The notes beneath the pieces were generated by a model. The model did not search any database and had not been told where the DNA came from. It saw only the letters and a program-made list of their open reading frames with translations. 64,000 nucleotides of DNA, from the NCBI GenBank assembly GCA_045541395.1, contig JAZQIZ010000001.1:213233-277232 (forward strand), read 5' to 3'. Shown piece after piece: positions 43,105 through 59,054 of the stretch. How positions within the stretch are numbered: the stretch's first letter is position 1; each line of letters begins with the position of its first letter. This stretch comes from Eubacteriales bacterium (lineage in GTDB: Bacteria > Bacillota > Clostridia > Oscillospirales > UMGS1783). The position numbers and the translations under genes were made by a program.

Positions 43105-43538
43105 TCTCTATTCTCCGTAAGTTCTATTGCCCAGGGAATATACTTTTTAATTCTTTCTTTGCAATAATTATACATATCAATATTTCCACCGTATGGATCA
43201 GCAATACCATCCTTCCCCATAACATAGACCTTGTCGGTTGCATTTGGAAAAATAGATACTACGGCAAAAGCGTGTTGCTTGGACATACAAATTATAACAC
43301 ATGAATTTGCAATGTCTCCCTCTGTTACCTTACGTGCCTTATGATAACTCATATCAATTCCTTCTATTAGAAGTGTTTTATGAGCGTTAGCCGAAAGGCC
43401 AGTACCTTCTTCAGGAAAAATTCCTGCACTTAAGGCAGTAATATCAAGATTGTGCTCTTTGGCGTATTTATTTGTAAGCCCCTGCGCAATAGGGCTTCTG
43501 CAAGTATTACCTGTGCAGATATATAGTATTCTTTTCAT
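43101..43538 (-). CDS. low-molecular-weight protein tyrosine/arginine phosphatase (YwlE-like)
   Basis: The CX5R(S/T) P-loop sits in ICTGNTCRSP, with a DPYGG general-acid loop. Confidence 0.88.
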   Translation of the reverse strand: MKRILYICTGNTCRSPIAQGLTNKYAKEHNLDITALSAGIFPEEGTGLSANAHKTLLIEGIDMSYHKARKVTEGDIANSCVIICMSKQHAFAVVSIFPNATDKVYVMGKDGIADPYGGNIDMYNYCKERIKKYIPWAIELTENRE

Positions 43539-46066
43539 TAATTTTTTGCCTCATACCAGCTATCGCCAATGCCTATATCAACTGAAAGTGGAAGACTGAG
43601 ATTTCCTGCGGCCTCCATTTCTGTTTTTAAAATGGCCATTGCTTTATCTACTTCATTATCGGGACTTTCAATAATAAGTTCGTCGTGGACCTGTAAAATG
43701 ATCCTGGAATTCATATTATTTTCTTTAAGTTTTATTGCAACATTAACCATAGCGATCTTAAGAATATCTGCCGCGCTTCCCTGTATCGGTGTATTCTTCG
43801 CTACCCTCTCACCGAAACTTCTAATATTATGGTTTTGGACAGAAAGTTCAGGAATATATCTTCTTCTTCCAAACATTGTTGTTACAAATCCGTTTTTCTT
43901 TGCCGCTAATACAGTTTCATCGAGATATTCTTTTATTCCTTTATAAGTATCAAAGTAGCTTTCAATATATTCTTTTGCCTGTTTTCTCGATACTTTAATG
44001 TCACCTGCAAGTGAAAATTCAGAAATTCCATAAACAATACCGAAATTTACCGCCTTTGCCTTAGATCGCATTTCCGGAGTTACCATCTCAAGGGGCACTC
44101 TGAATACCTGAGAAGCAGTAATTGAATGAATATCCGAATTATTATTAAAGGCGTTCAACATAGTTTCATCATTAGCAATATGAGCAAGAACGCGAAGTTC
44201 TATCTGAGAATAGTCAGCATCAATAAGTTTATATCCTTTCGGAGCTGTAAACATTTTTCTCAGTTCTCTGCCAATTCCGTGTCTTACAGGAATATTCTGT
44301 AGATTAGGTTCGGATGAAGATATTCTTCCGGTTTGGGTAATGGTCTGATGGAAAACAGAGTGTATTCTTCCGCCTTCATCGATAAGATCAACAAAACCGT
44401 CAACATAGGTAGATTTAAGCTTAGCATACTGCCTAAACTCGAGTATACAATCTATAATTTCATGATACCCACGAAGTTTTTCAAGCACTTCTGCGCCGGT
44501 AGAATAACCTGTTTTATTTTTAGAAATAACAGGTAGCTTAAGTTTATTGAATAATACGTCTCCCAACTGCTTAGGGGAGTTAATATTAAACTTTTCCCCT
44601 GCATAGAAATATATCATATCAGTAAGGTTATCTATCCGTTTATTAAGCTCTTCTCCGAAAGCATATAATCTTTCTTTATCAAGTGAAAAGCCTAAATGCT
44701 CCATCTGAGCCAACACAGAAGTCAATGGACGCTCAATATCATAATACAGACTTGTCATTCCTGTATCATTTAAAAGCATATCCATTTTATTCCTTGCTTT
44801 TTTAAGGCAAACACAAGCAGCGCTCATAGAAGAAACCGAGACTCCTGCGTAAGTGGAAATCAAATCAAACAATTCGTATTTAGAAACAGATGGATTTAAT
44901 ACGTATGCTGCCACCTTAATATCAAAATCAAGAGACTTATATTCAAGTCCTTTATCGTAAAGAAGTTTTATTGCAGGTTTAACCGAATATGTGATTTTTT
45001 TAATAGAATCATTAGCAAGTATTTCTGAAAAGATTTCCTCGGAAATATCACAGGAAAAGCTTTCTTCAGAAAATGACGCAAAAAATCTATCCTTCTCGAG
45101 CAGATAATAAATCTCACCGGCTTCTTTAGCCATGTTTATCATTTGATTGCAAGTGATCTCGTTTCCCGATACTATTAATTCCGATTCGGTGTGCTCTTCA
45201 TTCAAACCAAAACGGTTTATTGCGTTTGTAAAATTCAGATCCCGAAATAAATCTAAAAGCTTAACGTTATTATAAGGCTTAACCCTGCAAGAATCTTCAT
45301 TTACAATAATAGGTGCGTTTTTATCAATTATTACAAGTTGCTTAGACAGAAAAGCCATATCTTTTGAATTAATAAGTTTATCTCTTTGTCCTTTTTTTAT
45401 TTCAGGACTATCTATATTTTCATAAACTCCTTCAAGAGAGCCGAATTTCTGTATAAGTGCAATAGCACCCTTTTCGCCGATCCCTGATACGCCCGGAATA
45501 TTGTCGGAAGAGTCACCCATAATAGACTTAACGTCTATTAATTTAACCGGATCGACTCCGTATTTTTCACAGACAGCTTGTTTGTCATATACGTTATATT
45601 CAGTACCGGATGCTTTGCTTACGGCCAGTAATACTTTTACGTTTTCACTTACCAACTGAAGACTGTCACGGTCACCCGTTACAATAAAACACTCATGGCC
45701 ATTCTTAGAAAATTCAGTAACAACGGTACCAATAACATCGTCGCCTTCATAACCTTCTTTTTCTAAAATTTCAATATTCATCGCACTTAACATTGCCTTT
45801 GCTATATCCATTTGAGAGGCAAGTTCAGGAGGCATTCCTTTTCGCTGAGCCTTATATCCTTCGTACATTTTGTGACGAAAGGTTTTAGCTCTTACATCAA
45901 ATGCTGCCGCAATAAAATCCGGCTTCAAATCGTCAATCAATCTTGAGATTATATTCAAAAAACCGTAAACGGCATTAGTGGGTCTGCCATCCCTTGATGT
46001 AAGGGGCGGCATACCGAAAAAAGCCCTGTTCAATATACTGTTAGAGTCAAATATCATTAATTTCAT
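43538..46066 (-). CDS. polA: DNA polymerase I
   Basis: 5' nuclease domain (GDSSDNIPGV) and polymerase motifs DYSQIELR, RSKAKAVNFGIVYG and QVHDEL. Confidence 0.97.
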   Translation of the reverse strand: MKLMIFDSNSILNRAFFGMPPLTSRDGRPTNAVYGFLNIISRLIDDLKPDFIAAAFDVRAKTFRHKMYEGYKAQRKGMPPELASQMDIAKAMLSAMNIEILEKEGYEGDDVIGTVVTEFSKNGHECFIVTGDRDSLQLVSENVKVLLAVSKASGTEYNVYDKQAVCEKYGVDPVKLIDVKSIMGDSSDNIPGVSGIGEKGAIALIQKFGSLEGVYENIDSPEIKKGQRDKLINSKDMAFLSKQLVIIDKNAPIIVNEDSCRVKPYNNVKLLDLFRDLNFTNAINRFGLNEEHTESELIVSGNEITCNQMINMAKEAGEIYYLLEKDRFFASFSEESFSCDISEEIFSEILANDSIKKITYSVKPAIKLLYDKGLEYKSLDFDIKVAAYVLNPSVSKYELFDLISTYAGVSVSSMSAACVCLKKARNKMDMLLNDTGMTSLYYDIERPLTSVLAQMEHLGFSLDKERLYAFGEELNKRIDNLTDMIYFYAGEKFNINSPKQLGDVLFNKLKLPVISKNKTGYSTGAEVLEKLRGYHEIIDCILEFRQYAKLKSTYVDGFVDLIDEGGRIHSVFHQTITQTGRISSSEPNLQNIPVRHGIGRELRKMFTAPKGYKLIDADYSQIELRVLAHIANDETMLNAFNNNSDIHSITASQVFRVPLEMVTPEMRSKAKAVNFGIVYGISEFSLAGDIKVSRKQAKEYIESYFDTYKGIKEYLDETVLAAKKNGFVTTMFGRRRYIPELSVQNHNIRSFGERVAKNTPIQGSAADILKIAMVNVAIKLKENNMNSRIILQVHDELIIESPDNEVDKAMAILKTEMEAAGNLSLPLSVDIGIGDSWYEAKN

Positions 46067-46180
46067 ATTCTACACCCATTATATAATCTATCAGTTTATT
46101 ATATCACAAACTAATTAATAATACAACGAAAAGATATTTAATTATATTATAATATATTATGTATTTTTTTATTATTTTCT

Positions 46181-46209
46181 TTGCAATTAACAAAAAAATA
46201 GTGTATAAT
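46181..46209 (+). promoter_or_regulatory. sigma-A type promoter of the rlmB operon
   Basis: TTGCAA, a 17-nt spacer, then TATAAT. Confidence 0.45.
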
Positions 46210-46240
46210 AAGATGAATATATATCGGAGAAATGTTTCTT

Positions 46241-46993
46241 ATGATTGAAAATAATGAAAAAAGGGTGTCTGTTGGAGTAAATCCCGTATATGAACTATTA
46301 AAAAGTGATACAACTGTTGACAGACTATATATTGCCAACGGCAAAGATAGCCCTCAAATAAAAAGACTGATTGGTCTTGCCAAAGAAAAAGGTGTCCCTG
46401 TTGTTTATACTCATATTTCAAACCTTGACAATATGAGTGAAGGAGCAAGGCATCAAGGCGTTGCCGCTCTTTGCGCTGAAATGGAATATTGCGAGGTTGA
46501 AGATATTCTTAATTACGCAAAAGCAAAGAATGAGAAGCCTTTTATCATAATTTTGGACTCAATTAAAGATCCGCATAATTTGGGCGCAATTATCCGTTCT
46601 GCTGACGGTTGTGGTGCACACGGAATAATTGTTCCTAAGCGTAATTCCGCTCCCCTGACTCATGTTGTTGCAAAAACATCTGCAGGCGCACTTGAAAATG
46701 CTAAAATTGCCCGTGTTTCTAATCTTAATTCAACAGTAGAAAACCTTAAAAAAGAGGGAATATGGGTTTTCGGTGCAGCAGATGCCGGCGCCAAAAATTA
46801 TACCGAAGTTGATTTTGATTGTCCTGCTGCAATTGTTATAGGCGATGAAGGTTTCGGAATAAGCAAACTATTAATGTCAAAATGCGACTTTCTTATTAAG
46901 ATACCTATGCTTGGAAGCGTTAGCTCCTTAAATGCATCTGTTGCTGCTGGCGTATTGATGTATGAAGCGCTAAGGCAACGGTCATCCAATTAA
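46241..46993 (+). CDS. rlmB: 23S rRNA (guanosine-2'-O)-methyltransferase RlmB (SpoU/TrmH family)
   Basis: SpoU motifs LD.I.DPHNLGAIIRSA and VIGDEG.G.S...C D. GGAGA RBS before ATG 46241. Confidence 0.88.
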   Translation: MIENNEKRVSVGVNPVYELLKSDTTVDRLYIANGKDSPQIKRLIGLAKEKGVPVVYTHISNLDNMSEGARHQGVAALCAEMEYCEVEDILNYAKAKNEKPFIIILDSIKDPHNLGAIIRSADGCGAHGIIVPKRNSAPLTHVVAKTSAGALENAKIARVSNLNSTVENLKKEGIWVFGAADAGAKNYTEVDFDCPAAIVIGDEGFGISKLLMSKCDFLIKIPMLGSVSSLNASVAAGVLMYEALRQRSSN

Positions 46994-47008
46994 TCCGGAG
47001 GAAAAATT

Positions 47009-49525
47009 ATGTTAGACAACGAACTTAATTCAATTCTAAATGAAATAGAAATCGGTAAAGGTAAAGGTATTGCTGAAGATCAAAGTAAATTTAAAACCTC
47101 TGACTTTTCACTTGACAGTATACTTAAAGAATACGGTTTCGGGACCGATACCAACACAGTTAAAGAACCTGTGACGGAAGAAGAACTACCCAAGTTTCCC
47201 GCCAAGGAACCGGATGAGTTAAAAGAAGAAATATTATCGGGTGAATTGGTGATCGAACCTGAGCCTCAGGCACCTGAAATTCCTGTAAAAGAAGTCGCAC
47301 CGATACCCGAGCCGGAACCGAAAATTGAGTCTGCAATCTCTGAACCTGTAAATGCTTTGGAAAACGGACCTGTTTCCGTTCCTAAAGTTTTAGGCAAAAA
47401 AGTTGATATTTTTGATAATCAGGATATCGTTTCTATGCTTGCGGCAAATAAGCTTGGTAAAACCAACGATAAGGGCGAAAGTCCCAAGGAAATGACTCAA
47501 CTTTTTACCAGAGAACAGGAAGAAGACTTTAAAATGCGTAGCGGTTATATTGATATCGCCGCAATTAAAGCTGCAACTGCAGCAATAAAGCTTGAAAAAG
47601 AAAAGGTAGCAGAAGAAACTATTGCTGTCAATACTCCCGAAGAAACAAGCCCCGAGCAAAAAGCTCTTTTCAGTAAAATAGGTAGCTTTTTCTCTGATAC
47701 CACCTTCCGTTACGATACTTCTACCGTTAACGAACTTACTGTTACAGCAAAGAAGAAAAAAACACGATTTAAGAAAGATACACAGCAAATTGCTGAACCG
47801 GAAATAAAGGAAGAACCTTTGGCGCCCGGCGATATATTGGAAGCTGAAGATGTTCCAAACGTTGAGCAGGATATTCTTTCACAAATGAACATAGCATTTT
47901 TAAAGGCGATATTAACAGGTATTCTTGCGATCCCTCTTGCTTTATTGAACCTTTTCCCTAACCTTGTTGATGATATGCTCCATTCATTGTCTATGGCAAA
48001 TCCCTTTAACTATGCAACAGCAAACCTTTGCTTCTTGATTATCATTGCAATTATTAACATTGGCATTATCTATAAGGGTCTTGTTGGATTATTTACACTT
48101 AAACCATCAGGATCGACGCTTGCAGCCCTTTCTTTGCTCGCTTCGATAATTCACTGTGTTTATGTTATGATCAAACCGGAAAGTCTTACTTCAATGTTTG
48201 GCGTAATTGCTGCATTGTCTGTAATTTTTGTATTGATAGGCAAGCATAATAATTATAGGAATGTATACAAGAACCTTGAGATACTTGCTTTCAATGCAAC
48301 CAAGACTGCCTGTGTAAACGTTGAGGGCGGCCACTCTTTAAAAGAACTTTATAATGAAAACAGAAAAACCGTTTCCTGCTGTTCTGTTAAATTATTGACT
48401 CATTTCCTTACGAAGTCTTTTGATTATAATTTCTCAGACAAGCTTGCAAATATTTCTATTCTTGTTGGCATAATTGCGGCAATTGTAGTAACTTCAATAT
48501 CAGGGTTAGTAAAAGAATCAAATAACGTGTTCGGTACTCTATCCATTGCCTTTGCAACATTAAGTCCGTTTTGCTTTGACCTTGCATATTCACTGCCAAT
48601 GAACAGTACCTCAAATAAGATCAGAAAAACCGGCAGTGCTGTTGTAAGTTATACTGTTGCTAAAGAATTTTCCAATACTACCGACTTTATTATGCGTGAC
48701 TGTGACCTTTTCAAGCCGGATAATATTACCGTTCATTCTATGAAAATCAACGGAAATGAAAAAATAAACGATGTTATAATAAACTGTGCATCACTTATAA
48801 AGGCAAGTGACAGCCCCGTTTCAGGTGCATTTTTAAATATTCTTGATAACAAATCAAGTATGCTTATGCCTGTTACGGATTTTGATTGGACTCCCGATAA
48901 AGGCTATTCCGGCAATATAAACGGAACTAAGTATTTTATTGGCAGCAGCCAATACCTTGCCGATTGCGGAATCAAGCTCCCAACTATTGATCTTGAAGAA
49001 AAATATAAAAGAATTGGCCGCCAGGTAGTTATGTTTGCAGACAGCCGTAAATTACTTGCAGTATTCTCAATTTCTTATAACCGTGACGAACAAATATACA
49101 ATAATCTACATAAAATTAGCCTTGAAGATATGAAAATACTCGTTCTTACTAAAGATTGTAATATTACTGCACAGCTTCTTTCCGAAATATACGAAATGAA
49201 TGATCATACCTTTGCTATTGCTTCGAAAGAAGAATTTGGACGAGTTAACTCCGATAATAATTCTATTGATAAATGCCCGGCCGGTATTTATTCGATCACA
49301 GGTTCTGCAGGTGTTACGTCTGCACTAGCCAACTGTAAACGGCTAATTAGCACTATTAAAATTTCTGTTATTTTCAGAACGATTGCTATTGCTTCTTGTA
49401 TTTTATTACTTATATATGCGAGTCTAACAAATAATTTTGAAGTACTTCTCTCAGCTAAGAATATAATCCTCTATCATCTTATCTGGCTTATTCCTTCAAT
49501 CTTCGTATCTGCATTTGCAGGTTAA
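47009..49525 (+). CDS. large membrane protein: disordered acidic/Pro-rich N-terminus plus a P1B-type-ATPase-like core lacking the catalytic motifs
   Basis: See findings. The sequence stays in register with the P1B consensus around TM4 (LSPFCFDLAYSLPM vs ACPCALGLATP), the P-domain (FIMRDCDLFK vs VVFDKTGTLT; ILVLTKDCNITA vs VVMLTGDN..TA; ITGSAGVTSAL vs VGDGINDAPAL) and the N-domain (GRQVVMFADSRKLLAVFSI vs GKTVV.VA.DGKL.G.IAV). Confidence 0.55.
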   Translation: MLDNELNSILNEIEIGKGKGIAEDQSKFKTSDFSLDSILKEYGFGTDTNTVKEPVTEEELPKFPAKEPDELKEEILSGELVIEPEPQAPEIPVKEVAPIPEPEPKIESAISEPVNALENGPVSVPKVLGKKVDIFDNQDIVSMLAANKLGKTNDKGESPKEMTQLFTREQEEDFKMRSGYIDIAAIKAATAAIKLEKEKVAEETIAVNTPEETSPEQKALFSKIGSFFSDTTFRYDTSTVNELTVTAKKKKTRFKKDTQQIAEPEIKEEPLAPGDILEAEDVPNVEQDILSQMNIAFLKAILTGILAIPLALLNLFPNLVDDMLHSLSMANPFNYATANLCFLIIIAIINIGIIYKGLVGLFTLKPSGSTLAALSLLASIIHCVYVMIKPESLTSMFGVIAALSVIFVLIGKHNNYRNVYKNLEILAFNATKTACVNVEGGHSLKELYNENRKTVSCCSVKLLTHFLTKSFDYNFSDKLANISILVGIIAAIVVTSISGLVKESNNVFGTLSIAFATLSPFCFDLAYSLPMNSTSNKIRKTGSAVVSYTVAKEFSNTTDFIMRDCDLFKPDNITVHSMKINGNEKINDVIINCASLIKASDSPVSGAFLNILDNKSSMLMPVTDFDWTPDKGYSGNINGTKYFIGSSQYLADCGIKLPTIDLEEKYKRIGRQVVMFADSRKLLAVFSISYNRDEQIYNNLHKISLEDMKILVLTKDCNITAQLLSEIYEMNDHTFAIASKEEFGRVNSDNNSIDKCPAGIYSITGSAGVTSALANCKRLISTIKISVIFRTIAIASCILLLIYASLTNNFEVLLSAKNIILYHLIWLIPSIFVSAFAG

Positions 49526-50041
49526 ATGAAAAATAATTATATTTTCATAGGAATGCCCGGAAGCGGTAAAAGTACTTTAGGAAAATTACTCGCAAGGAGA
49601 CTAAATATTACTTTTTGCGATACAGACAAGCTTATTGAAAAAAAATTCAACTTGCCTTTGCAGGAAATACTTGATCTGTACGGTGAAGAAAGATTTAAAC
49701 TTATTGAGGAACAAATTATTACTAAGTTAATTCTAAATAACACCGTAATTTCCACCGGCGGCAGTGCCGTTTATTCAAAAAATGCAATGGAATATCTTGC
49801 ATCAAAAGGTATCGTAATATTTATTAATACTGATTTAGATACGTTAAAAACTCGCATTAAAAATCCAACCAAGAGAGGTATTGTTTTATCCAATGGCGAA
49901 ACCTTTGAGGATATTTACAATAGAAGATTGCCTTTATATAAACAATATGCAGAAATCACTGTTAATTCCACAATGGAATCACCATATAAAACTATTGAGA
50001 AATTAATTGAATTGTTAAAAAAACAGAAGGTTATTTACTAA
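49526..50041 (+). CDS. aroK: shikimate kinase
   Basis: IFIGMPGSGKSTLGK P-loop and DTD shikimate-binding motif. Its ATG directly abuts the upstream stop codon. Confidence 0.92.
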   Translation: MKNNYIFIGMPGSGKSTLGKLLARRLNITFCDTDKLIEKKFNLPLQEILDLYGEERFKLIEEQIITKLILNNTVISTGGSAVYSKNAMEYLASKGIVIFINTDLDTLKTRIKNPTKRGIVLSNGETFEDIYNRRLPLYKQYAEITVNSTMESPYKTIEKLIELLKKQKVIY

Positions 50042-50110: not shown

Positions 50111-50971
50111 ATGATAAGTAATTGTAATATTGCCGTTATAGGCGGCGATATAAGGCAAGCATACTTAATTAACAAGCTTGTTCAAGAAAACTATATTGTA
50201 AAGATCTGCGGTATTGAAAACACACCTGTCTATATTAATGGTGCGGTTATTTGCAATGATTATGCAGACGCACTCCAAAATGCAGACTATGTTATTTTAG
50301 GAGTTCCTTACACTAAAGATAACACTAATATCTATACTCCCCTATCTGATAAAACAATTACAATTGATGAAGTAAATTCTTGTATTAATAAAAAAGCAAT
50401 AATACTTGCAGGAAGAATAAAAAACTCTCATTTTATAAATAAAACCATTGATTATGCATCCAGTGATGAGTTTGCTTATCTGAATGCCATACCAACTGCA
50501 GAAGGATGTATAAATACCATTATAGCTAATTCCGAAAAATGTATTGACTCAATGAAAATCCTTATTACCGGCTACGGTAGAGTTGCAAAAATACTTGCAT
50601 ATAAGCTTAAAGCATTAAATGCTGAAGTTACCATTTGTGCCAGGAATAAAACACAACTTGCTGAAGCATTGGGTTATGGTTTTAACGTTTGTCCAATTAA
50701 TAAACTAAATGATTCTGCTATTCTTTTTGATACTTATATTAACACAGTAGATGCTAACATTTTTAACAAAGATTTTATTGATTTAATTACTGATGGCAAA
50801 CTAATAATTGACCTTGCTTCATTCCCCGGAGGAACAGATTTTAGTTATGCTGCTAAAAAGAAAATCAAAGCAATACATGCCCTTTCGCTACCGGCAAAAA
50901 CTGCACCGGAAACTGCAGGAGAAATAATTTTTAAGGTTGTTAATGACATGATTAAGGAGGATATTACGTGA
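50111..50971 (+). CDS. spoVFA: dipicolinate synthase subunit A
   Basis: NAD-binding fold (ILITGYGRVAK), 286 aa. Coupled to the subunit B gene by a 4-nt overlap. Confidence 0.85.
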   Translation: MISNCNIAVIGGDIRQAYLINKLVQENYIVKICGIENTPVYINGAVICNDYADALQNADYVILGVPYTKDNTNIYTPLSDKTITIDEVNSCINKKAIILAGRIKNSHFINKTIDYASSDEFAYLNAIPTAEGCINTIIANSEKCIDSMKILITGYGRVAKILAYKLKALNAEVTICARNKTQLAEALGYGFNVCPINKLNDSAILFDTYINTVDANIFNKDFIDLITDGKLIIDLASFPGGTDFSYAAKKKIKAIHALSLPAKTAPETAGEIIFKVVNDMIKEDIT

Positions 50972-51537
50972 AAAAAACTATAGGCTTTGCTATATGCGGA
51001 TCTTTTTGTACTTTTGATAAAGTAATACCTCAAATAGAGACATTAGTAGATAACGGCTATGAAGTTGTACCTATTATGTCTGAAATATCATATTGCTCGA
51101 ATACAAGATTCGGAAATGCTGAGGATCATATTAAGAGAATAAAAGAAATAACAGGTAAGGAGATTATCCATACAATTAAGCAGGCTGAGCCGATCGGTCC
51201 TAAATGCTTGTTAGACGGGATAATAGTGGCACCATGTACCGGAAATACGTTAGGTAAATTAGCCAACGGAATAACCGACAGTGTAGTGACAATGGCAATA
51301 AAAGCCAATTTAAGAAATAACGGTCCTGTAATAATTGCTGTTTCAACAAATGACGGACTTGGTGCCAGCGCAAAGAATATCGGTCTTTTGCATAATACAA
51401 AAAATATATTTTTTGTGCCTTACAGACAAGACGACCATATAAATAAACCTACATCTTTGGTTGCAGAAATGACACTAATTAAAGATACACTGGATGCAGC
51501 ACTAAATAACTTTCAAATTCAACCGGTTTTAATATAA
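50968..51537 (+). CDS. spoVFB: dipicolinate synthase subunit B (flavoprotein family)
   Basis: IGFAICGSFCT N-terminus and APCTGNTLGKLANGI, typical of SpoVFB. Confidence 0.88.
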   Translation: MKKTIGFAICGSFCTFDKVIPQIETLVDNGYEVVPIMSEISYCSNTRFGNAEDHIKRIKEITGKEIIHTIKQAEPIGPKCLLDGIIVAPCTGNTLGKLANGITDSVVTMAIKANLRNNGPVIIAVSTNDGLGASAKNIGLLHNTKNIFFVPYRQDDHINKPTSLVAEMTLIKDTLDAALNNFQIQPVLI

Positions 51538-51567: not shown

Positions 51568-52420
51568 ATAAATTATTCTGTAGCATTGCAGCTTTTAAAG
51601 TATTTTTCAAAAGAACAGTTACTGTCATAGGACCAACACCACCGGGAACGGGGGTGATTAAGGAAACCTTGTTTTTAACGGCATCAAAATCCACGTCACC
51701 GCAAAGTTTATTGTTTTCATCGCGGTTTATACCAACATCAATAACAACAGCGCCTTCTTTAACCATATTTTCTTTAACAAATAAAGGTTTTCCAACAGCA
51801 GCAATTATAATATCAGCCTGCTTACATATATCGCATAACCCAACAGTTTTGGAATGACATACAGTTACTGTTGCATTTTTCTGAAGCATAAGCATTGACA
51901 TAGGTTTACCTACAATATTGCTGCGTCCAATAATAACACAGTGTTTGCCGCAAATATCAACATTATATCTTTCAAGTAATATAACAATACCGGCAGGAGT
52001 GCATGGTAAAAACGAATAATCTCCAATCATTATTCGACCTACGTTTTCAGGATGAAAAGCATCTACGTCCTTTATAGGAGAAATAGCATTTATTACTTCT
52101 CTTTCATCAAGACCTTCCGGCAAAGGCATCTGAACTAAAATGCCGTTAACTTTGTTATCATTGTTCAGCTTATATATTAACTCCAAAAGCTCTTTCTGAG
52201 TAGTGTTTGCCGGTAAAGCAAATTCCAAAGATCTGATGCCTGTTTTTTCGCATGCCTTCTTTTTATTTGAAACGTATACCTTAGAAGCAGGATCATCACC
52301 AACAATAACTACTGCTAAAGTAGGTTCAACTCCTTTTTCCTTCAACAGACCTACTTCTATAGCAATTTCTTCTCTGCAAAGCTGAGAAATAAGTTTACCG
52401 TCGATAAGATTATTCATCAT
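51566..52420 (-). CDS. folD: bifunctional methylenetetrahydrofolate dehydrogenase/methenyl-THF cyclohydrolase
   Basis: IDGK N-terminus, VGDDPAS.VYV, GRSNIVGKP and TPVPGGVGPMT. The start is set at ATG 52420, behind AAGGAAG, and overlaps the lgt 3' end. Confidence 0.93.
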   Translation of the reverse strand: MMNNLIDGKLISQLCREEIAIEVGLLKEKGVEPTLAVVIVGDDPASKVYVSNKKKACEKTGIRSLEFALPANTTQKELLELIYKLNNDNKVNGILVQMPLPEGLDEREVINAISPIKDVDAFHPENVGRIMIGDYSFLPCTPAGIVILLERYNVDICGKHCVIIGRSNIVGKPMSMLMLQKNATVTVCHSKTVGLCDICKQADIIIAAVGKPLFVKENMVKEGAVVIDVGINRDENNKLCGDVDFDAVKNKVSLITPVPGGVGPMTVTVLLKNTLKAAMLQNNL

Positions 52421-53396
52421 TTGATTCTTCCTTGTTTTCTTCAAAAGCCTCGGCAGCCTTTACCGGATCATATCCGTACATAGGTACGTAATCACTATTG
52501 GCCTTATCTTCCTTCTTTACGTCATTAATTTCATTAGAATCTTCAGTTTCTTCTTTAATATTATTTACTGCATTTGTTTTTGGATCAACATATTCAAAGC
52601 TAAATTCAACACCCTTTTTAAGGTCAATAAAACGAATAACCAGCATATAGAGGGCAATTAAAGCAATACCGAATGAAACGATCTGTGAAACAGGAAGATC
52701 ACCCATAACGAGTACATACTGCTGAACACGTAAGCCTTCCATCAATCCTCTGCCCAGTCCGTACCAAAGCATATACATCAAAGCAATCTGGCCGGGGAAT
52801 TTTCTCTTCTTGGAAAGCTTATGTAAAATTATAAAGCCAACAAGATTCCAAATAGATTCATATAAGAATAATGGATGATATGTGGTACCGTCAATTTCCA
52901 TACCCCAAGGCAAGGTAGTTTCAATACCGTAAACCTCACGATTAACAAAGTTGCCCCAACGACCGATAGTCTGGCCGATAAGGAAACCTAAGGAAACAAG
53001 ATCCAAAACGTTACCAAATAAAAGCTTTCTTTTCTTACAAAAGAATACAAGAAAAATAGCCGTTGCAATTAAAGCACCGTAAATGGAAAGGCCGCCGTTT
53101 CTAACGTCAACAATATCCAGCAGGGTTTCAATTTCACCGGGAGGTGCAAAAAAAACGTAAAATAAACGGGCGCCAACAATTGCAATGGGAACGGTAAATA
53201 AAAGACCGTCAAGAAGTGTATTGCTTGTAATATTAAATTCCTTTGCGCGCCTGTCAGCGTAAAGATACGCAATAAATAAACCAACACAAATAATTACTGC
53301 GTACCAATAAATAGCATAACCGAAAACTGAAAAATAATTTTTGAAATCCAGCTCAAATCCAAGACCCGGAAATCCGATTGGCATAGAGTCAATCAT
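52410..53396 (-). CDS. lgt: prolipoprotein diacylglyceryl transferase with an acidic C-terminal extension
   Basis: Lgt motifs (IYWYA, GRWGNF.N.E.YG, HP.FLYES) plus an extra charged tail of about 60 aa. Confidence 0.92.
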   Translation of the reverse strand: MIDSMPIGFPGLGFELDFKNYFSVFGYAIYWYAVIICVGLFIAYLYADRRAKEFNITSNTLLDGLLFTVPIAIVGARLFYVFFAPPGEIETLLDIVDVRNGGLSIYGALIATAIFLVFFCKKRKLLFGNVLDLVSLGFLIGQTIGRWGNFVNREVYGIETTLPWGMEIDGTTYHPLFLYESIWNLVGFIILHKLSKKRKFPGQIALMYMLWYGLGRGLMEGLRVQQYVLVMGDLPVSQIVSFGIALIALYMLVIRFIDLKKGVEFSFEYVDPKTNAVNNIKEETEDSNEINDVKKEDKANSDYVPMYGYDPVKAAEAFEENKEESNDE

Positions 53397-58949: not shown

Positions 58950-59054
58950 AAAAAAAGAGACAGGTTACCTACTGCGCCCGGAGTGAACTGCTTAATGCTG
59001 CTCGGTTCCCCGCCTGACATGGTTCACAGCCATCCGCCGCGTAGGACCTGTCCC
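58950..59054 (-). ncRNA. ffs: signal recognition particle RNA, short 4.5S-like form
   Basis: The minus strand reads GGGACAGGUCC...CAUGUCAGGCGGGGAACCGAGCAGCAUUAAGCAG...ACCUGUCUC followed by a U-run. The domain IV consensus GUCAGG..GGAA..AGCAGC is present. The 5' and 3' ends pair (GGGACAGGU / ACCUGUCUC). It occupies the canonical position upstream of dnaX. Confidence 0.85.

What the first reader, a model, noticed from the sequence alone, without database searches (positions are those of the whole stretch)
47009..49525. Catalytically dead P-type-ATPase-like membrane protein with a ~290-aa disordered acidic/proline-rich N-terminus
Seen: the C-terminal ~550 aa stay in register with the P1B (heavy-metal) ATPase consensus as I recall it, but every invariant motif is replaced. 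LSPFCFDLAYSLPM stands for the ACPCALGLATP transmembrane metal site. FIMRDCDLFK stands for VVFDKTGTLT, so there is no DKTGT phosphorylation site. ILVLTKDCNITA stands for VVMLTGDN..TA. ITGSAGVTSAL stands for VGDGINDAPAL. The actuator domain with TGES appears to be missing altogether: only about 70 residues lie between the second TM pair and the next TM segments. The N-terminal 290 aa are low complexity (EPEPQAPEIPVKEVAPIPEPEPK, KKKKTRFKK) in place of HMA metal-binding domains. The gene is wedged between rlmB and aroK, with a 15-nt gap upstream and zero gap downstream, so it is likely co-transcribed with housekeeping genes. Inference: this is a pseudo-enzyme that retains the P-type scaffold for a non-transport role such as scaffolding, sensing or anchoring. 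I do not know of a characterised family of this kind.
Basis: partly seen in the sequence, partly recalled or inferred. Interest (0 to 1): 0.62.

Follow-up and report, generated by a model that had tools for sequence, protein, structure and literature searches.

The report
Dead copper-pump relative paired with rlmB
This gene encodes a membrane protein built on the frame of a copper-pumping ATPase that has lost its pumping machinery, and it belongs to a large, unnamed family of gut and fermenter bacteria that always sits just after the ribosomal RNA methylase gene rlmB, so it is a conserved protein of unknown role and not a decaying gene.

Summary
ORF 47009-49525 (+, 838 aa) has a 280-residue acidic, low-confidence N-terminal arm. 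It is followed by a 558-residue core that is homologous in sequence (LpCopA E=2e-16) and predicted fold (Foldseek E=5e-18) to P1B heavy-metal ATPases. DKTGT, GDGxND, CPC and the HP histidine are replaced in register, and the actuator domain is reduced to a 47-residue loop.

It is not an orphan or a pseudogene. An exhaustive profile search finds 2,129 cluster representatives at E<=1e-30 with the same full-length core, none of them named or covered by Pfam or NCBIfam.

New findings:
- In every informative locus (77 fetched loci plus the window, members down to 20% identity) the gene lies directly downstream of rlmB. The dpaAB linkage is local to this clade.
- A short N-terminal peptide, roughly Y-x-V-D-D-I-L-x-E-I, marks the family (126/169 members; 2/169 when shuffled).
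- The N-domain and first half of the P-domain are the most conserved parts.
- An acidic residue at or next to the old phosphorylation site, and the T and D of TGD, are retained.
- In this clade a co-varying D524/R790 pair occupies the former ion site.

Best reading: a non-pumping membrane scaffold or sensor. Its function is inferred, not shown.

The parts
46232..46993 (+). rlmB (23S rRNA G2251 2'-O-methyltransferase), the invariant upstream operon partner
   Evidence: TIGR00186 scores 246 bits against a cutoff of 160. An RlmB orthologue lies directly upstream on the same strand in all 77 informative fetched loci.
46997..47001 (+). Shine-Dalgarno GGAGG, 7 nt before the ATG
   Evidence: Read directly from the sequence.
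47009..49525 (+). Whole ORF, 838 aa: A-domain-less P1B-ATPase-like pseudo-pump
47009..47848 (+). N-terminal cytoplasmic arm (residues 1-280), acidic, E/K/P-rich, predicted disordered
   Evidence: E 15%, K 11%, P 7.5%, net charge -22. pLDDT is below 40, with only short helices. Arm length in the family ranges from 0 to about 1,200 aa.
47021..47047 (+). N-terminal short motif, copy 1 (ELNSILNEI, residues 5-13)
   Evidence: The family motif occurs in 126/169 members against 2/169 shuffled. AF2 predicts a helix at residues 3-14.
47102..47137 (+). N-terminal short motif, copy 2 (DFSLDSILKEYG, residues 32-43)
   Evidence: Invariant F33, L35, D36, I38, L39, K40, E41 and G43 in the clade; matches the family motif.
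47513..47587 (+). Conserved island EQEEDFKMRSGYIDIAAIKAATAAI (residues 169-193) inside the arm
   Evidence: Invariant K175-D182 in 14 clade members. Predicted helices at 168-178 and 183-194.
47657..47731 (+). Conserved island QKALFSKIGSFFSDTTFRYDTSTVN (residues 217-241)
   Evidence: Invariant columns in A3; also aligns with P0008.
47849..48289 (+). Helices MA, MB, M1 and M2 (residues 281-427), the P1B-type first four TM helices
   Evidence: AF2 helices 282-315, 332-362, 368-388 and 398-427. The best fold matches are P1B pumps.
48290..48430 (+). Short M2-M3 loop (residues 428-474) in place of the actuator domain; no TGES
   Evidence: The loop is 39-48 residues in all 164 aligned members. TGE[SPA] occurs in 1/173. 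The model has low confidence here.
48431..48628 (+). M3-M4 (residues 475-540). M4 is unwound at S518-D524 around P520. LSPFCFDLAYSLPM replaces the CPC site.
   Evidence: P520 is conserved in 146/164. D524 co-varies with R790.
48686..48718 (+). Degenerate phosphorylation motif FIMRDCDLFKP (residues 560-570) in place of hhhDKTGTLT
   Evidence: HMM register. Family consensus is hhhD-A-x-[DE]-L-F-P, with D at 563 in 93 members or at 564 in 39 of 164.
48764..49123 (+). N-domain-like module (residues 586-705), the most conserved part. HP histidine lost (SDSPV). Family-specific P658..D661.E663.KY666 and Y690.
49136..49171 (+). ILVLTKDCNITA (residues 710-721), a remnant of the TGD(N) motif. T714, D716, N718 and T720 are conserved.
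   Evidence: T714 in 127 members (plus 23 S), D716 in 162/164, N718 in 144, T720 in 147.
49295..49327 (+). ITGSAGVTSAL (residues 763-773) in place of GDGxNDxPAL. Both Mg-binding aspartates are lost.
   Evidence: G764 is conserved in 129/164, but there is no conserved acidic residue.
49334..49522 (+). M5-M6 (residues 776-838). R790 sits at the position of the M5 metal-site Asn (Q in 133/164). W826 is conserved.
49526..50041 (+). Shikimate-kinase-fold kinase gene ('aroK'), abutting the stop codon. Linked only in part of the close clade.
50111..51537 (+). dpaA and dpaB (dipicolinate synthase), downstream. The linkage is clade-specific.
   Evidence: Absent beside distant members.

Best explanation
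The gene encodes one member of a large, so far unnamed bacterial family that descends from P1B (copper-type) P-type ATPases. The family has lost the actuator domain, the DKTGT, GDGxND and HP catalytic residues, and the CPC metal site. It keeps the 8-helix membrane frame and a well-conserved N/P-domain head.

Shown:
- The homology and fold.
- The motif losses, in register.
- The size and conservation of the family.
- The invariant rlmB->X gene pair.
- The N-terminal peptide motif on a long, domain-less acidic arm.

Inferred: it no longer pumps. Without an A-domain, the conserved Lys, or the Mg-binding aspartates, it cannot run the E1P/E2P cycle. In this clade a D524-R790 pair probably fills the old ion site.

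Most likely mechanism: it works as a membrane-anchored scaffold or switch. The conserved head binds a ligand or partner, possibly a nucleotide without turnover. The flexible arm presents the short Y-x-V-D-D-I-L-x-E-I helix to recruit a cytoplasmic partner. It is expressed together with the housekeeping rRNA methyltransferase RlmB. A link to ribosome large-subunit maturation or translation at the membrane is the leading guess, and nothing more than that.
For: - Fold and homology: and 72 (20/23 diverse members weakly hit the CopA and TIGR01525 models).
- Motif losses in register.
- Not a pseudogene: 2,129 representatives at E<=1e-30, all covering the whole core. There is a sharp gap to genuine Cu pumps, E<=1e-117 against >=1e-27. 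The loop length is fixed at 39-48 residues.
- Head most conserved.
- Retained acidic pocket (D563/564, [DE]566, T714, D716, N718).
- D524/R790 co-variation, with an independent E/R pair in P0028.
- N-terminal motif. The arms carry no domains.
- rlmB linkage in all informative loci. The operon starts at rlmB and the downstream genes vary.
- Short gaps and no terminator-like site between rlmB and X.
- Perfect-match contigs in a gut metatranscriptome.
Against: - No functional data of any kind exist.
- The family keeps an Asp at or next to the phosphorylation position in about 80% of members (132/164), plus T..D of TGD and the conserved N-domain glycines. Nucleotide binding, or even an unusual phosphoryl chemistry, is therefore not excluded.
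- The wider family keeps polar residues at the old ion site (C516, N528, Q790, Q/E823), which could still bind an ion or small molecule.
- Gene-pair conservation with a housekeeping gene may reflect only shared expression.
- Co-transcription was not shown. The RNA evidence is two short contigs, and DNA carry-over is possible.
- The full-length AF2 model is poor (pLDDT 44), so 'disordered' rests on low confidence and composition.
- The taxonomy of distant members could not be established.
Confidence: 0.55

Rival explanations
1. It is still an enzyme or transporter of an unusual kind. One version: an ATP-binding or slowly hydrolysing protein that uses the shifted acidic pair (D564-x-D566 here, D-A-x-[DE] in most members). 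Another version: a passive ion or ligand pathway through the retained M4-M6 polar site.
For: An Asp is kept at 563 or 564 in 132/164 members, [DE]566 in 149/164, T714 and D716 almost always, and the N-domain glycines G632 and G645 in 164/164. The head is the most conserved part. The M4 proline and the polar C516, N528 and Q790 are conserved in the wider family.
Against: There is no conserved Lys after the Asp, no motif III Lys, no GDGxND aspartates for Mg2+, no HP histidine and no A-domain/TGES for dephosphorylation in any member. In this clade the ion site carries a probable D524-R790 salt bridge.
Confidence: 0.2
2. It is a sporulation-specific membrane protein tied to dipicolinate/Ca2+ handling, because it lies just upstream of dpaA and dpaB.
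For: X is followed by (aroK-like) dpaA-dpaB in the window and in all 9 close relatives. P-type Ca2+ pumps such as YloB act in sporulation (PMC12999246, seen).
Against: The dpaAB linkage disappears outside the close clade. Distant members are followed by EF-G-like, membrane, pentapeptide or other genes. The invariant partner is the vegetative housekeeping gene rlmB. Nothing suggests Ca2+ or DPA binding.
Confidence: 0.07
3. It is a decaying pseudogene copy of a copper ATPase.
For: All hallmark motifs are missing, and Pfam gives no hit.
Against: The 838-codon ORF is intact and has an RBS. The degenerate motifs are themselves conserved. There are thousands of intact relatives with fixed domain lengths and 90-100% conserved family-specific residues. 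The core is more conserved than the arm (dN 0.27 against 0.51).
Confidence: 0.01

Closest known systems
P1B-1 Cu(I)-exporting P-type ATPases (Legionella CopA 3RFU/4BBJ; Archaeoglobus CopB N/P domain 3SKY; human ATP7B)
   Same: The 8-helix MA-MB-M1..M6 topology, M4 unwound at a conserved proline, the P-domain and N-domain folds, and domain order and spacing (proline to phospho-site 43 residues; phospho-site to the GDG position about 200). Best sequence and structure matches.
   Different: No actuator domain (a 47-residue loop), no DKTGT, no GDGxND, no HP histidine, no CPC and no HMA domains. Instead it has a long acidic arm with a short N-terminal motif, family-specific N-domain motifs (P..D.E.KY, Y690) and an invariant operon with rlmB. 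All curated P-type models score far below their cutoffs.
Degenerate N-terminal P-type-ATPase-like halves of Mycobacterium tuberculosis CtpH and CtpI
   Same: A bacterial P-type ATPase-like module described from AlphaFold models as degenerate (PMC13460109).
   Different: Those modules are fused to a canonical, presumably active P2-type pump in the same polypeptide. Here the degenerate module stands alone, derives from P1B and lacks the A-domain. No sequence comparison was made here.
P4-ATPase-like modules of alveolate guanylate cyclases (P4GC) that have lost the DKTGT Asp and the LDGET Glu in some lineages
   Same: A conserved P-type module retained after loss of catalytic residues, and thought to serve a non-pump, regulatory or scaffolding role (PMC13466520).
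   Different: Those are eukaryotic, P4-type, keep a folded A-domain and are fused to a cyclase. There is no relation beyond superfamily membership.
HAD-superfamily phosphatases (motif I DxDx[TV])
   Same: The P-domain is a HAD fold. This clade has D564-C-D566 after a hydrophobic strand, and T714 sits at the motif II position.
   Different: The motif III Lys and the motif IV acidic residues are absent. The DxD reading requires a one-residue register shift and holds only for this clade (most members are D-A-x-[DE]).

Membership tests
Catalytically competent P-type ATPase (P1B heavy-metal pump) | DKTGT phosphorylation motif with the catalytic Asp | tested here: not met
   The aligned position is R563 (sequence RDCDL). 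DKTGT occurs in 0/173 family members.
Catalytically competent P-type ATPase (P1B heavy-metal pump) | Actuator domain with TGE(S) between M2 and M3 | tested here: not met
   The loop is 47 residues (39-48 family-wide). TGE[SPA] occurs in 1/173. Genuine P1B hits have about 105 residues from TGE to CPx.
Catalytically competent P-type ATPase (P1B heavy-metal pump) | GDGxNDxP hinge motif (Mg2+-binding aspartates) and the motif III Lys | tested here: not met
   ITGSAGVTSAL. G764 is conserved, but there is no conserved acidic residue, and the Lys is not conserved.
Catalytically competent P-type ATPase (P1B heavy-metal pump) | CPx metal-binding motif in M4, and M5/M6 metal ligands | tested here: not met
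   SPFCFD: only the proline is kept. R790 (Q in the family) stands at the M5 Asn position.
Catalytically competent P-type ATPase (P1B heavy-metal pump) | N-domain SEHP(L) histidine and GxG glycines | tested here: inconclusive
   The His is replaced (SDSPV; G or S in the family), but G632, G635 and G645 are conserved. Nucleotide binding is not testable here.
Catalytically competent P-type ATPase (P1B heavy-metal pump) | TGD(N) motif | tested here: met
   The T714 and D716 of T-K-D are conserved in 150/164 (T or S) and 162/164 members. The Gly is replaced.
Catalytically competent P-type ATPase (P1B heavy-metal pump) | N-terminal HMA metal-binding domain(s) | tested here: not met
   No Pfam domain anywhere in the protein. 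The arm has low complexity.
Catalytically competent P-type ATPase (P1B heavy-metal pump) | Score above the curated family cutoffs (TIGR01525, PRK10671, Pfam E1-E2_ATPase/Hydrolase) | tested here: not met
   30 bits against cutoffs of 346 and 1316. No Pfam hit at E<=1.
P-type ATPase superfamily (fold level, P1B branch) | 8-TM P1B topology with P- and N-domain folds | tested here: met
   AF2 pLDDT 80. Foldseek 4BBJ E=4.9e-18, TM 0.55. Profile against 3RFU E=2.1e-16.
rlmB-linked A-domain-less P1B-like family (defined here) | Full-length match to the 559-position core profile with a 39-48-residue M2-M3 loop | tested here: met
rlmB-linked A-domain-less P1B-like family (defined here) | Gene immediately downstream of rlmB on the same strand | tested here: met
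   The window gap is 15 nt. All 77 informative fetched loci show the pair.
rlmB-linked A-domain-less P1B-like family (defined here) | N-terminal h-[DE]-[DE]-I-L-x-E-h motif on a domain-less arm | tested here: met
   Two copies, at residues 5-13 and 32-43. Present in 126/169 members.
HAD phosphatase | Motifs I (DxDx[TV]), II (S/T), III (K) and IV (DD/GDxxxD) | tested here: not met
   There is a motif I-like DCDLF (clade only, shifted register) and a motif II T714, but motifs III and IV are absent.

The most novel reading that the evidence does not exclude
This would be the first stand-alone bacterial pseudo-P-type-ATPase family: a membrane-embedded, non-pumping switch. Its conserved N/P head senses a nucleotide or partner, and its N-terminal motif recruits a component of the translation or ribosome-maturation apparatus. 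That would make the invariant rlmB->X operon (with an EF-G paralogue as a frequent further neighbour) a membrane-linked module of 50S biogenesis or translation control in gut and fermenter bacteria that, where named, are Clostridia.
Probability: 0.2. Interest if true: 0.8.

Novelty: new variant of a known kind. Interest (0 to 1): 0.66.

Why it matters
P-type ATPases are among the best understood membrane enzymes, and their four-domain architecture and DKTGT motif are treated as universal. This is a family with thousands of sequence clusters, common in human and animal gut and fermenter metagenomes. It keeps the frame, has deleted the actuator domain and replaced the catalytic residues, and is still under strong constraint in the nucleotide-binding head.

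That shows the scaffold has been re-used for something other than pumping. The absolute linkage to rlmB gives a concrete and testable lead to its role. It also flags a gap in annotation: no Pfam or NCBIfam model exists, and every source calls these proteins hypothetical.

Tried and rejected
- Word-indexed homologue searches with the full protein and with the core found only the close clade. The exhaustive profile search was needed.
Narrower alignments worked.
- dN/dS against the nearest orthologue with DNA in hand (L001): dS is saturated and the method returns -1, so selection is argued from conservation patterns instead.
- The full-length AF2 model with 14 close sequences was poor (pLDDT 44). 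It cannot show whether the arm docks on the head.
- PADLOC: no hit. Defence-system membership is rejected.
- Pfam on six members with arms of 900-1,200 residues: no real domain, only a sub-threshold Lysostaphin_N repeat hit.
- Source names and neighbour-protein look-ups gave only 'hypothetical protein' or nothing. The taxonomy of distant members is unresolved. The close clade consists of uncultured Eubacteriales/Clostridia gut MAGs.
- Public RNA runs: one bovine-gut metatranscriptome has two perfect 151-nt contigs inside the gene and no junction-spanning reads. Co-transcription is untested.
- Literature searches for pseudo-, degenerate or FUPA P-type ATPases and for rlmB neighbourhoods found nothing on this family.
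- Rfam found no RNA element near the gene.
- The antisense ORF 47390-47788 (132 aa, TTG start) was ignored as a by-product of the coding strand.
Full report
**1. What is in the sequence**

The ORF listing gives a single long ORF at 47009..49525 on the + strand (838 aa, ATG). It is preceded by GGAGG seven bases upstream and lies 15 nt after the stop of the previous gene. The next gene starts at 49526, directly after its stop codon. The simple scans find a sigma-70-like site upstream of the previous gene (46180-46209) and no terminator-like site between that gene and the ORF.

The neighbours are as follows.

| Gene | Coordinates | Strand |
|---|---|---|
| polA | 43538-46066 | - |
| rlmB | 46232-46993 | + |
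| this ORF | 47009-49525 | + |
| shikimate-kinase-fold kinase | 49526-50041 | + |
| dpaA | 50111-50971 | + |
| dpaB | 50968-51537 | + |
| folD and lgt | from 51566 | - |

rlmB scores 246 bits on TIGR00186, against a cutoff of 160.

**2. Checking the observation**

Pfam finds nothing in the protein even at E<=1. NCBIfam gives only weak hits to CopA and to the P1B subfamily model: about 30 bits, against cutoffs of 1316 and 346. The similarity is nevertheless real.

- phmmer against PDB sequences hits the CopB nucleotide/phosphorylation domains (3SKY, E=1.3e-9, residues 586-744).
- A profile of eight family members hits Legionella CopA (3RFU) at E=2.1e-16 over M3, M4, the P-domain and the N-domain.
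- An AlphaFold2 model of residues 281-838 (mean pLDDT 80, pTM 0.75) finds P1B pumps first in the PDB: 4BBJ at E=4.9e-18 and TM 0.55, then ATP7B, ZntA, HMA4 and KdpB.
- The model has eight membrane helices in the P1B order MA, MB, M1, M2 / M3, M4 / M5, M6. M4 is unwound around P520, as in real pumps.

- The CPC site aligns with S-P-F-C.
- The Asp of DKTGT aligns with R563.
- The TGD region aligns with T714-K-D716.
- The GDGxND region aligns with T-G-S-A-G-V.

Spacing agrees as well. P520 to residue 563 is 43 residues, the same as the CPx proline to the Asp in the genuine Cu pumps retrieved. The M2-M3 loop is 47 residues (428-474) where real P1B pumps have an actuator domain. In genuine pumps, TGE to CPx alone spans about 105 residues.

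The N-terminal 280 residues are 15% Glu, 11% Lys and 7.5% Pro, with net charge -22. They are uniformly low-confidence in a full-length model, which shows only short helices. That model is poor overall (pLDDT 44).

- The M4 proline, the T and D of TGD, and an Asp next to the old phospho-site (D564) are retained.
- The arm is not featureless.

**3. It is a member of a very large family**

Word-indexed searches found only about 15 close relatives, at 46-75% identity. An exhaustive HMMER search of 1.84 billion cluster representatives with the core profile found 6,954 hits at E<=1e-3, 3,442 at E<=1e-10 and 2,129 at E<=1e-30. The best 150 all match the whole 558-residue core at their C-terminus. Their N-terminal extensions range from none to about 1,200 residues.

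In a further search, family members score E<=1e-117, while the next hits, genuine Cu pumps carrying the Pfam E1-E2_ATPase and hydrolase domains, start at E=7e-27. That is a clean gap.

None of 23 diverse members has a Pfam domain. Twenty of the 23 hit the CopA and P1B NCBIfam models weakly, far below cutoff. The only name any source gives is 'hypothetical protein'. Five literature searches found nothing on such a family.

The close clade comes from uncultured Eubacteriales/Clostridia gut MAGs. The window sequence itself recurs in faecal, bovine, sheep and manure metagenomes. Distant members come from human-gut, animal-gut and fermentation metagenomes, on loci of 35-70% G+C.

**4. What the family conserves (164 sequences aligned to the profile)**

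No member has DKTGT (0/173). GDGxND and TGE[SPA] each occur once in 173. The M2-M3 loop is 39-48 residues in all members. The loss of the actuator domain and of the catalytic motifs is thus ancestral to the family and stable.

The former active site has not been randomised.

- The consensus is hhhD-A-x-[DE]-L-F-P.
- An Asp stands at position 563 in 93 members and at 564 in 39. The window's clade has x-D-x-D.
- [DE]566 occurs in 149 members and L567 in 152.
- T714 occurs in 127 members (plus 23 Ser), D716 in 162, N718 in 144 and T720 in 147.
- The Lys after the Asp, the motif III Lys, both motif IV aspartates and the HP histidine are not conserved.

The N-domain and the first half of the P-domain are the most conserved parts: 2.2-2.3 bits per column against 1.7-1.9 elsewhere, with 17 columns at 80% or more in the N-domain. 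They contain family-specific residues: F608 (163/164), G632 and G645 (164/164), P658, E663, Y666 and Y690.

In the membrane, P520 (146/164), C516, N528, P530, Q790 (133/164, at the place of the M5 metal-site Asn), Y822 and W826 are conserved.

In the window's clade, position 524 in M4 is Asp and position 790 in M5 is Arg in all 14 members. The unrelated member P0028 has Glu and Arg at these positions. Everywhere else 524 is hydrophobic or Thr, and 790 is Gln. I read this as a salt bridge filling the former ion site.

**5. The arm**

Six members with the longest arms have no Pfam domain. A short motif, roughly [DN]-Y-[SN]-V-D-D-I-L-x-E-[IA]-[RK]-x-K-K, lies within the first 80 residues of 126 of 169 members, with a median start at residue 7. 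In shuffled sequences it appears in 2 of 169.

The window protein has two copies: ELNSILNEI at residues 5-13 and DFSLDSILKEYG at residues 32-43. Both are predicted helical. No other ORF of the window has the motif.

Two more islands, residues 169-193 and 217-241, are invariant in the clade.

**6. Genomic context**

In the nine close relatives the order is polA(-) | rlmB, X, (kinase), dpaA, dpaB | folD(-), lgt(-), as far as each contig reaches. The kinase is present in only three of them.

I looked up eight distant members at 20-30% identity: P0168, P0008, P0009, P0023, P0059, P0028, P0039 and P0096. In each, the gene immediately upstream on the same strand is again a SpoU_sub_bind + SpoU_methylase gene (partial in the P0009 locus), while the downstream gene differs. 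tblastn shows these upstream genes are RlmB orthologues, 44-80% identical to the window's. Gaps are mostly 10-33 nt.

A metagenome scan added 69 loci. Of these, 57 have RlmB directly upstream on the same strand. The other 12 are uninformative: the ORF is at a contig edge, the gene is broken, or the flank is too short. So every informative locus, 77 fetched loci plus the window, has rlmB followed by X.

Genes upstream of rlmB are mostly divergent, so the operon begins at rlmB. The commonest downstream neighbour is an EF-G-like GTPase (12 of 78). After that come a small membrane protein (9), a 107-aa minus-strand ORF I take to be spurious (7), dpaA (6) and a pentapeptide-repeat protein (5).

The dpaAB linkage that might suggest sporulation is therefore local to this clade. 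The rlmB linkage is a property of the family.

**7. Expression**

One bovine-gut metatranscriptome contains two 151-nt contigs identical to positions 47481-47631 and 47876-48026. This is weak evidence of transcription and says nothing about the junctions.

**8. Interpretation**

Shown:
- The protein is a P1B-derived protein without an actuator domain.
- It lacks the residues needed for Mg-dependent aspartyl-phosphate turnover and lacks the thiolate metal site.
- It belongs to a large constrained family.
- It is always encoded after rlmB.
- It carries a conserved N-terminal peptide on a long, domain-less arm.

Inferred:
- It does not pump.
- The conserved head is a binding module, for a nucleotide without turnover or for a protein partner.
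- The arm and its motif recruit a cytoplasmic partner.
- It is co-expressed with RlmB.

A link to large-subunit maturation or translation is suggested only by the operon and by the recurrent EF-G paralogue.

Rivals:
- A non-canonical enzyme or passive pathway. This stays alive because of the retained acidic pocket and polar membrane site.
- A sporulation or DPA role. The linkage is clade-only.
- A pseudogene. Effectively excluded.

**9. Comparison with the known**

The closest relatives in sequence and fold are Cu(I) P1B pumps, but seven of the eight defining catalytic features of that family that I tested were not met or were inconclusive. It should not be annotated as a heavy-metal ATPase.

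Two precedents exist for degenerate P-type modules.
- The N-terminal halves of M. tuberculosis CtpH and CtpI (PMC13460109).
- The P4-ATPase-like modules of some alveolate guanylate cyclases (PMC13466520).

Both are fused to an active enzyme, and neither is reported to lack the A-domain. A stand-alone bacterial family lacking the A-domain appears to be undescribed in the libraries and papers I could search.

**10. Verdict**

The finding is real and more interesting than a single odd gene. It is a new, widespread variant of the P-type ATPase scaffold, and it comes with a strong and testable genomic association. Its function remains unknown in any experimental sense.

- Interest: 0.66.
- Novelty: new variant of a known kind.

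Noticed in passing
The best shikimate kinase model gives 120 bits. It sits next to dpaAB, which belong to the aspartate-family pathway, so it may be a non-canonical homoserine kinase and not AroK.
   Followed up: partly
window 50111-51537 (+): dpaA and dpaB (dipicolinate synthase) overlap by 4 nt. They mark the organism as a likely endospore former. dpaA scores just below both equivalog cutoffs (257.5 against 261; 203.5 against 319.65), while dpaB is well above its cutoffs.
   Followed up: partly
L017 5548-7590; L072 4976-7078; L014 1570-3651(-): An EF-G-like translational GTPase paralogue is the commonest gene downstream of the rlmB-X pair in other lineages (12 of 78 loci), and it lies nearby on the other strand in the P0008 locus. 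Together with rlmB, this gives the neighbourhood a translation flavour.
   Followed up: partly
window 48578-48580 (D524) and 49376-49378 (R790): An Asp in M4 and an Arg in M5 co-vary perfectly in the 14-member clade, and an unrelated member (P0028) has Glu/Arg. The rest of the family has a hydrophobic residue or Thr with Gln. This is probably an intramembrane salt bridge at the old ion site. The contact could not be measured.
   Followed up: partly
window 58955-59053 (-): Bacterial small SRP RNA (RF00169, 65 bits), the only Rfam match in the window.
   Followed up: no
window 52410-53396 (-): The lgt (prolipoprotein diacylglyceryl transferase) ORF ends in an acidic, low-complexity tail of about 60 residues (…EETEDSNEINDVKKEDK…EENKEESNDE). 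Its 3' end overlaps the folD start by 35 nt.
   Followed up: no
P0180 (467 aa): A 467-residue protein without any Pfam domain matches the family profile at E=2.5e-22, in the score range of genuine Cu pumps. It has no TGE, CPx, DKTGT or GDGxND. It may be another, separate degenerate P-type relative.
   Followed up: no
window 47390-47788 (-): A 132-aa TTG-start ORF lies antisense to the arm-coding region. It has a Cys/Phe-rich odd composition and is most likely a shadow of the coding strand.
   Followed up: no
arms of family members, e.g. P0026, P0027, P0031; P0119, P0131, P0138, P0154: Sub-groups of the family share further short motifs inside their arms: 'GGKSYAELIGE', and 'EEIFS[TN].....R.TN..PL'. 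The latter resembles KEMTQLFTREQEE in the window protein. This suggests several linear motifs per arm.
   Followed up: no
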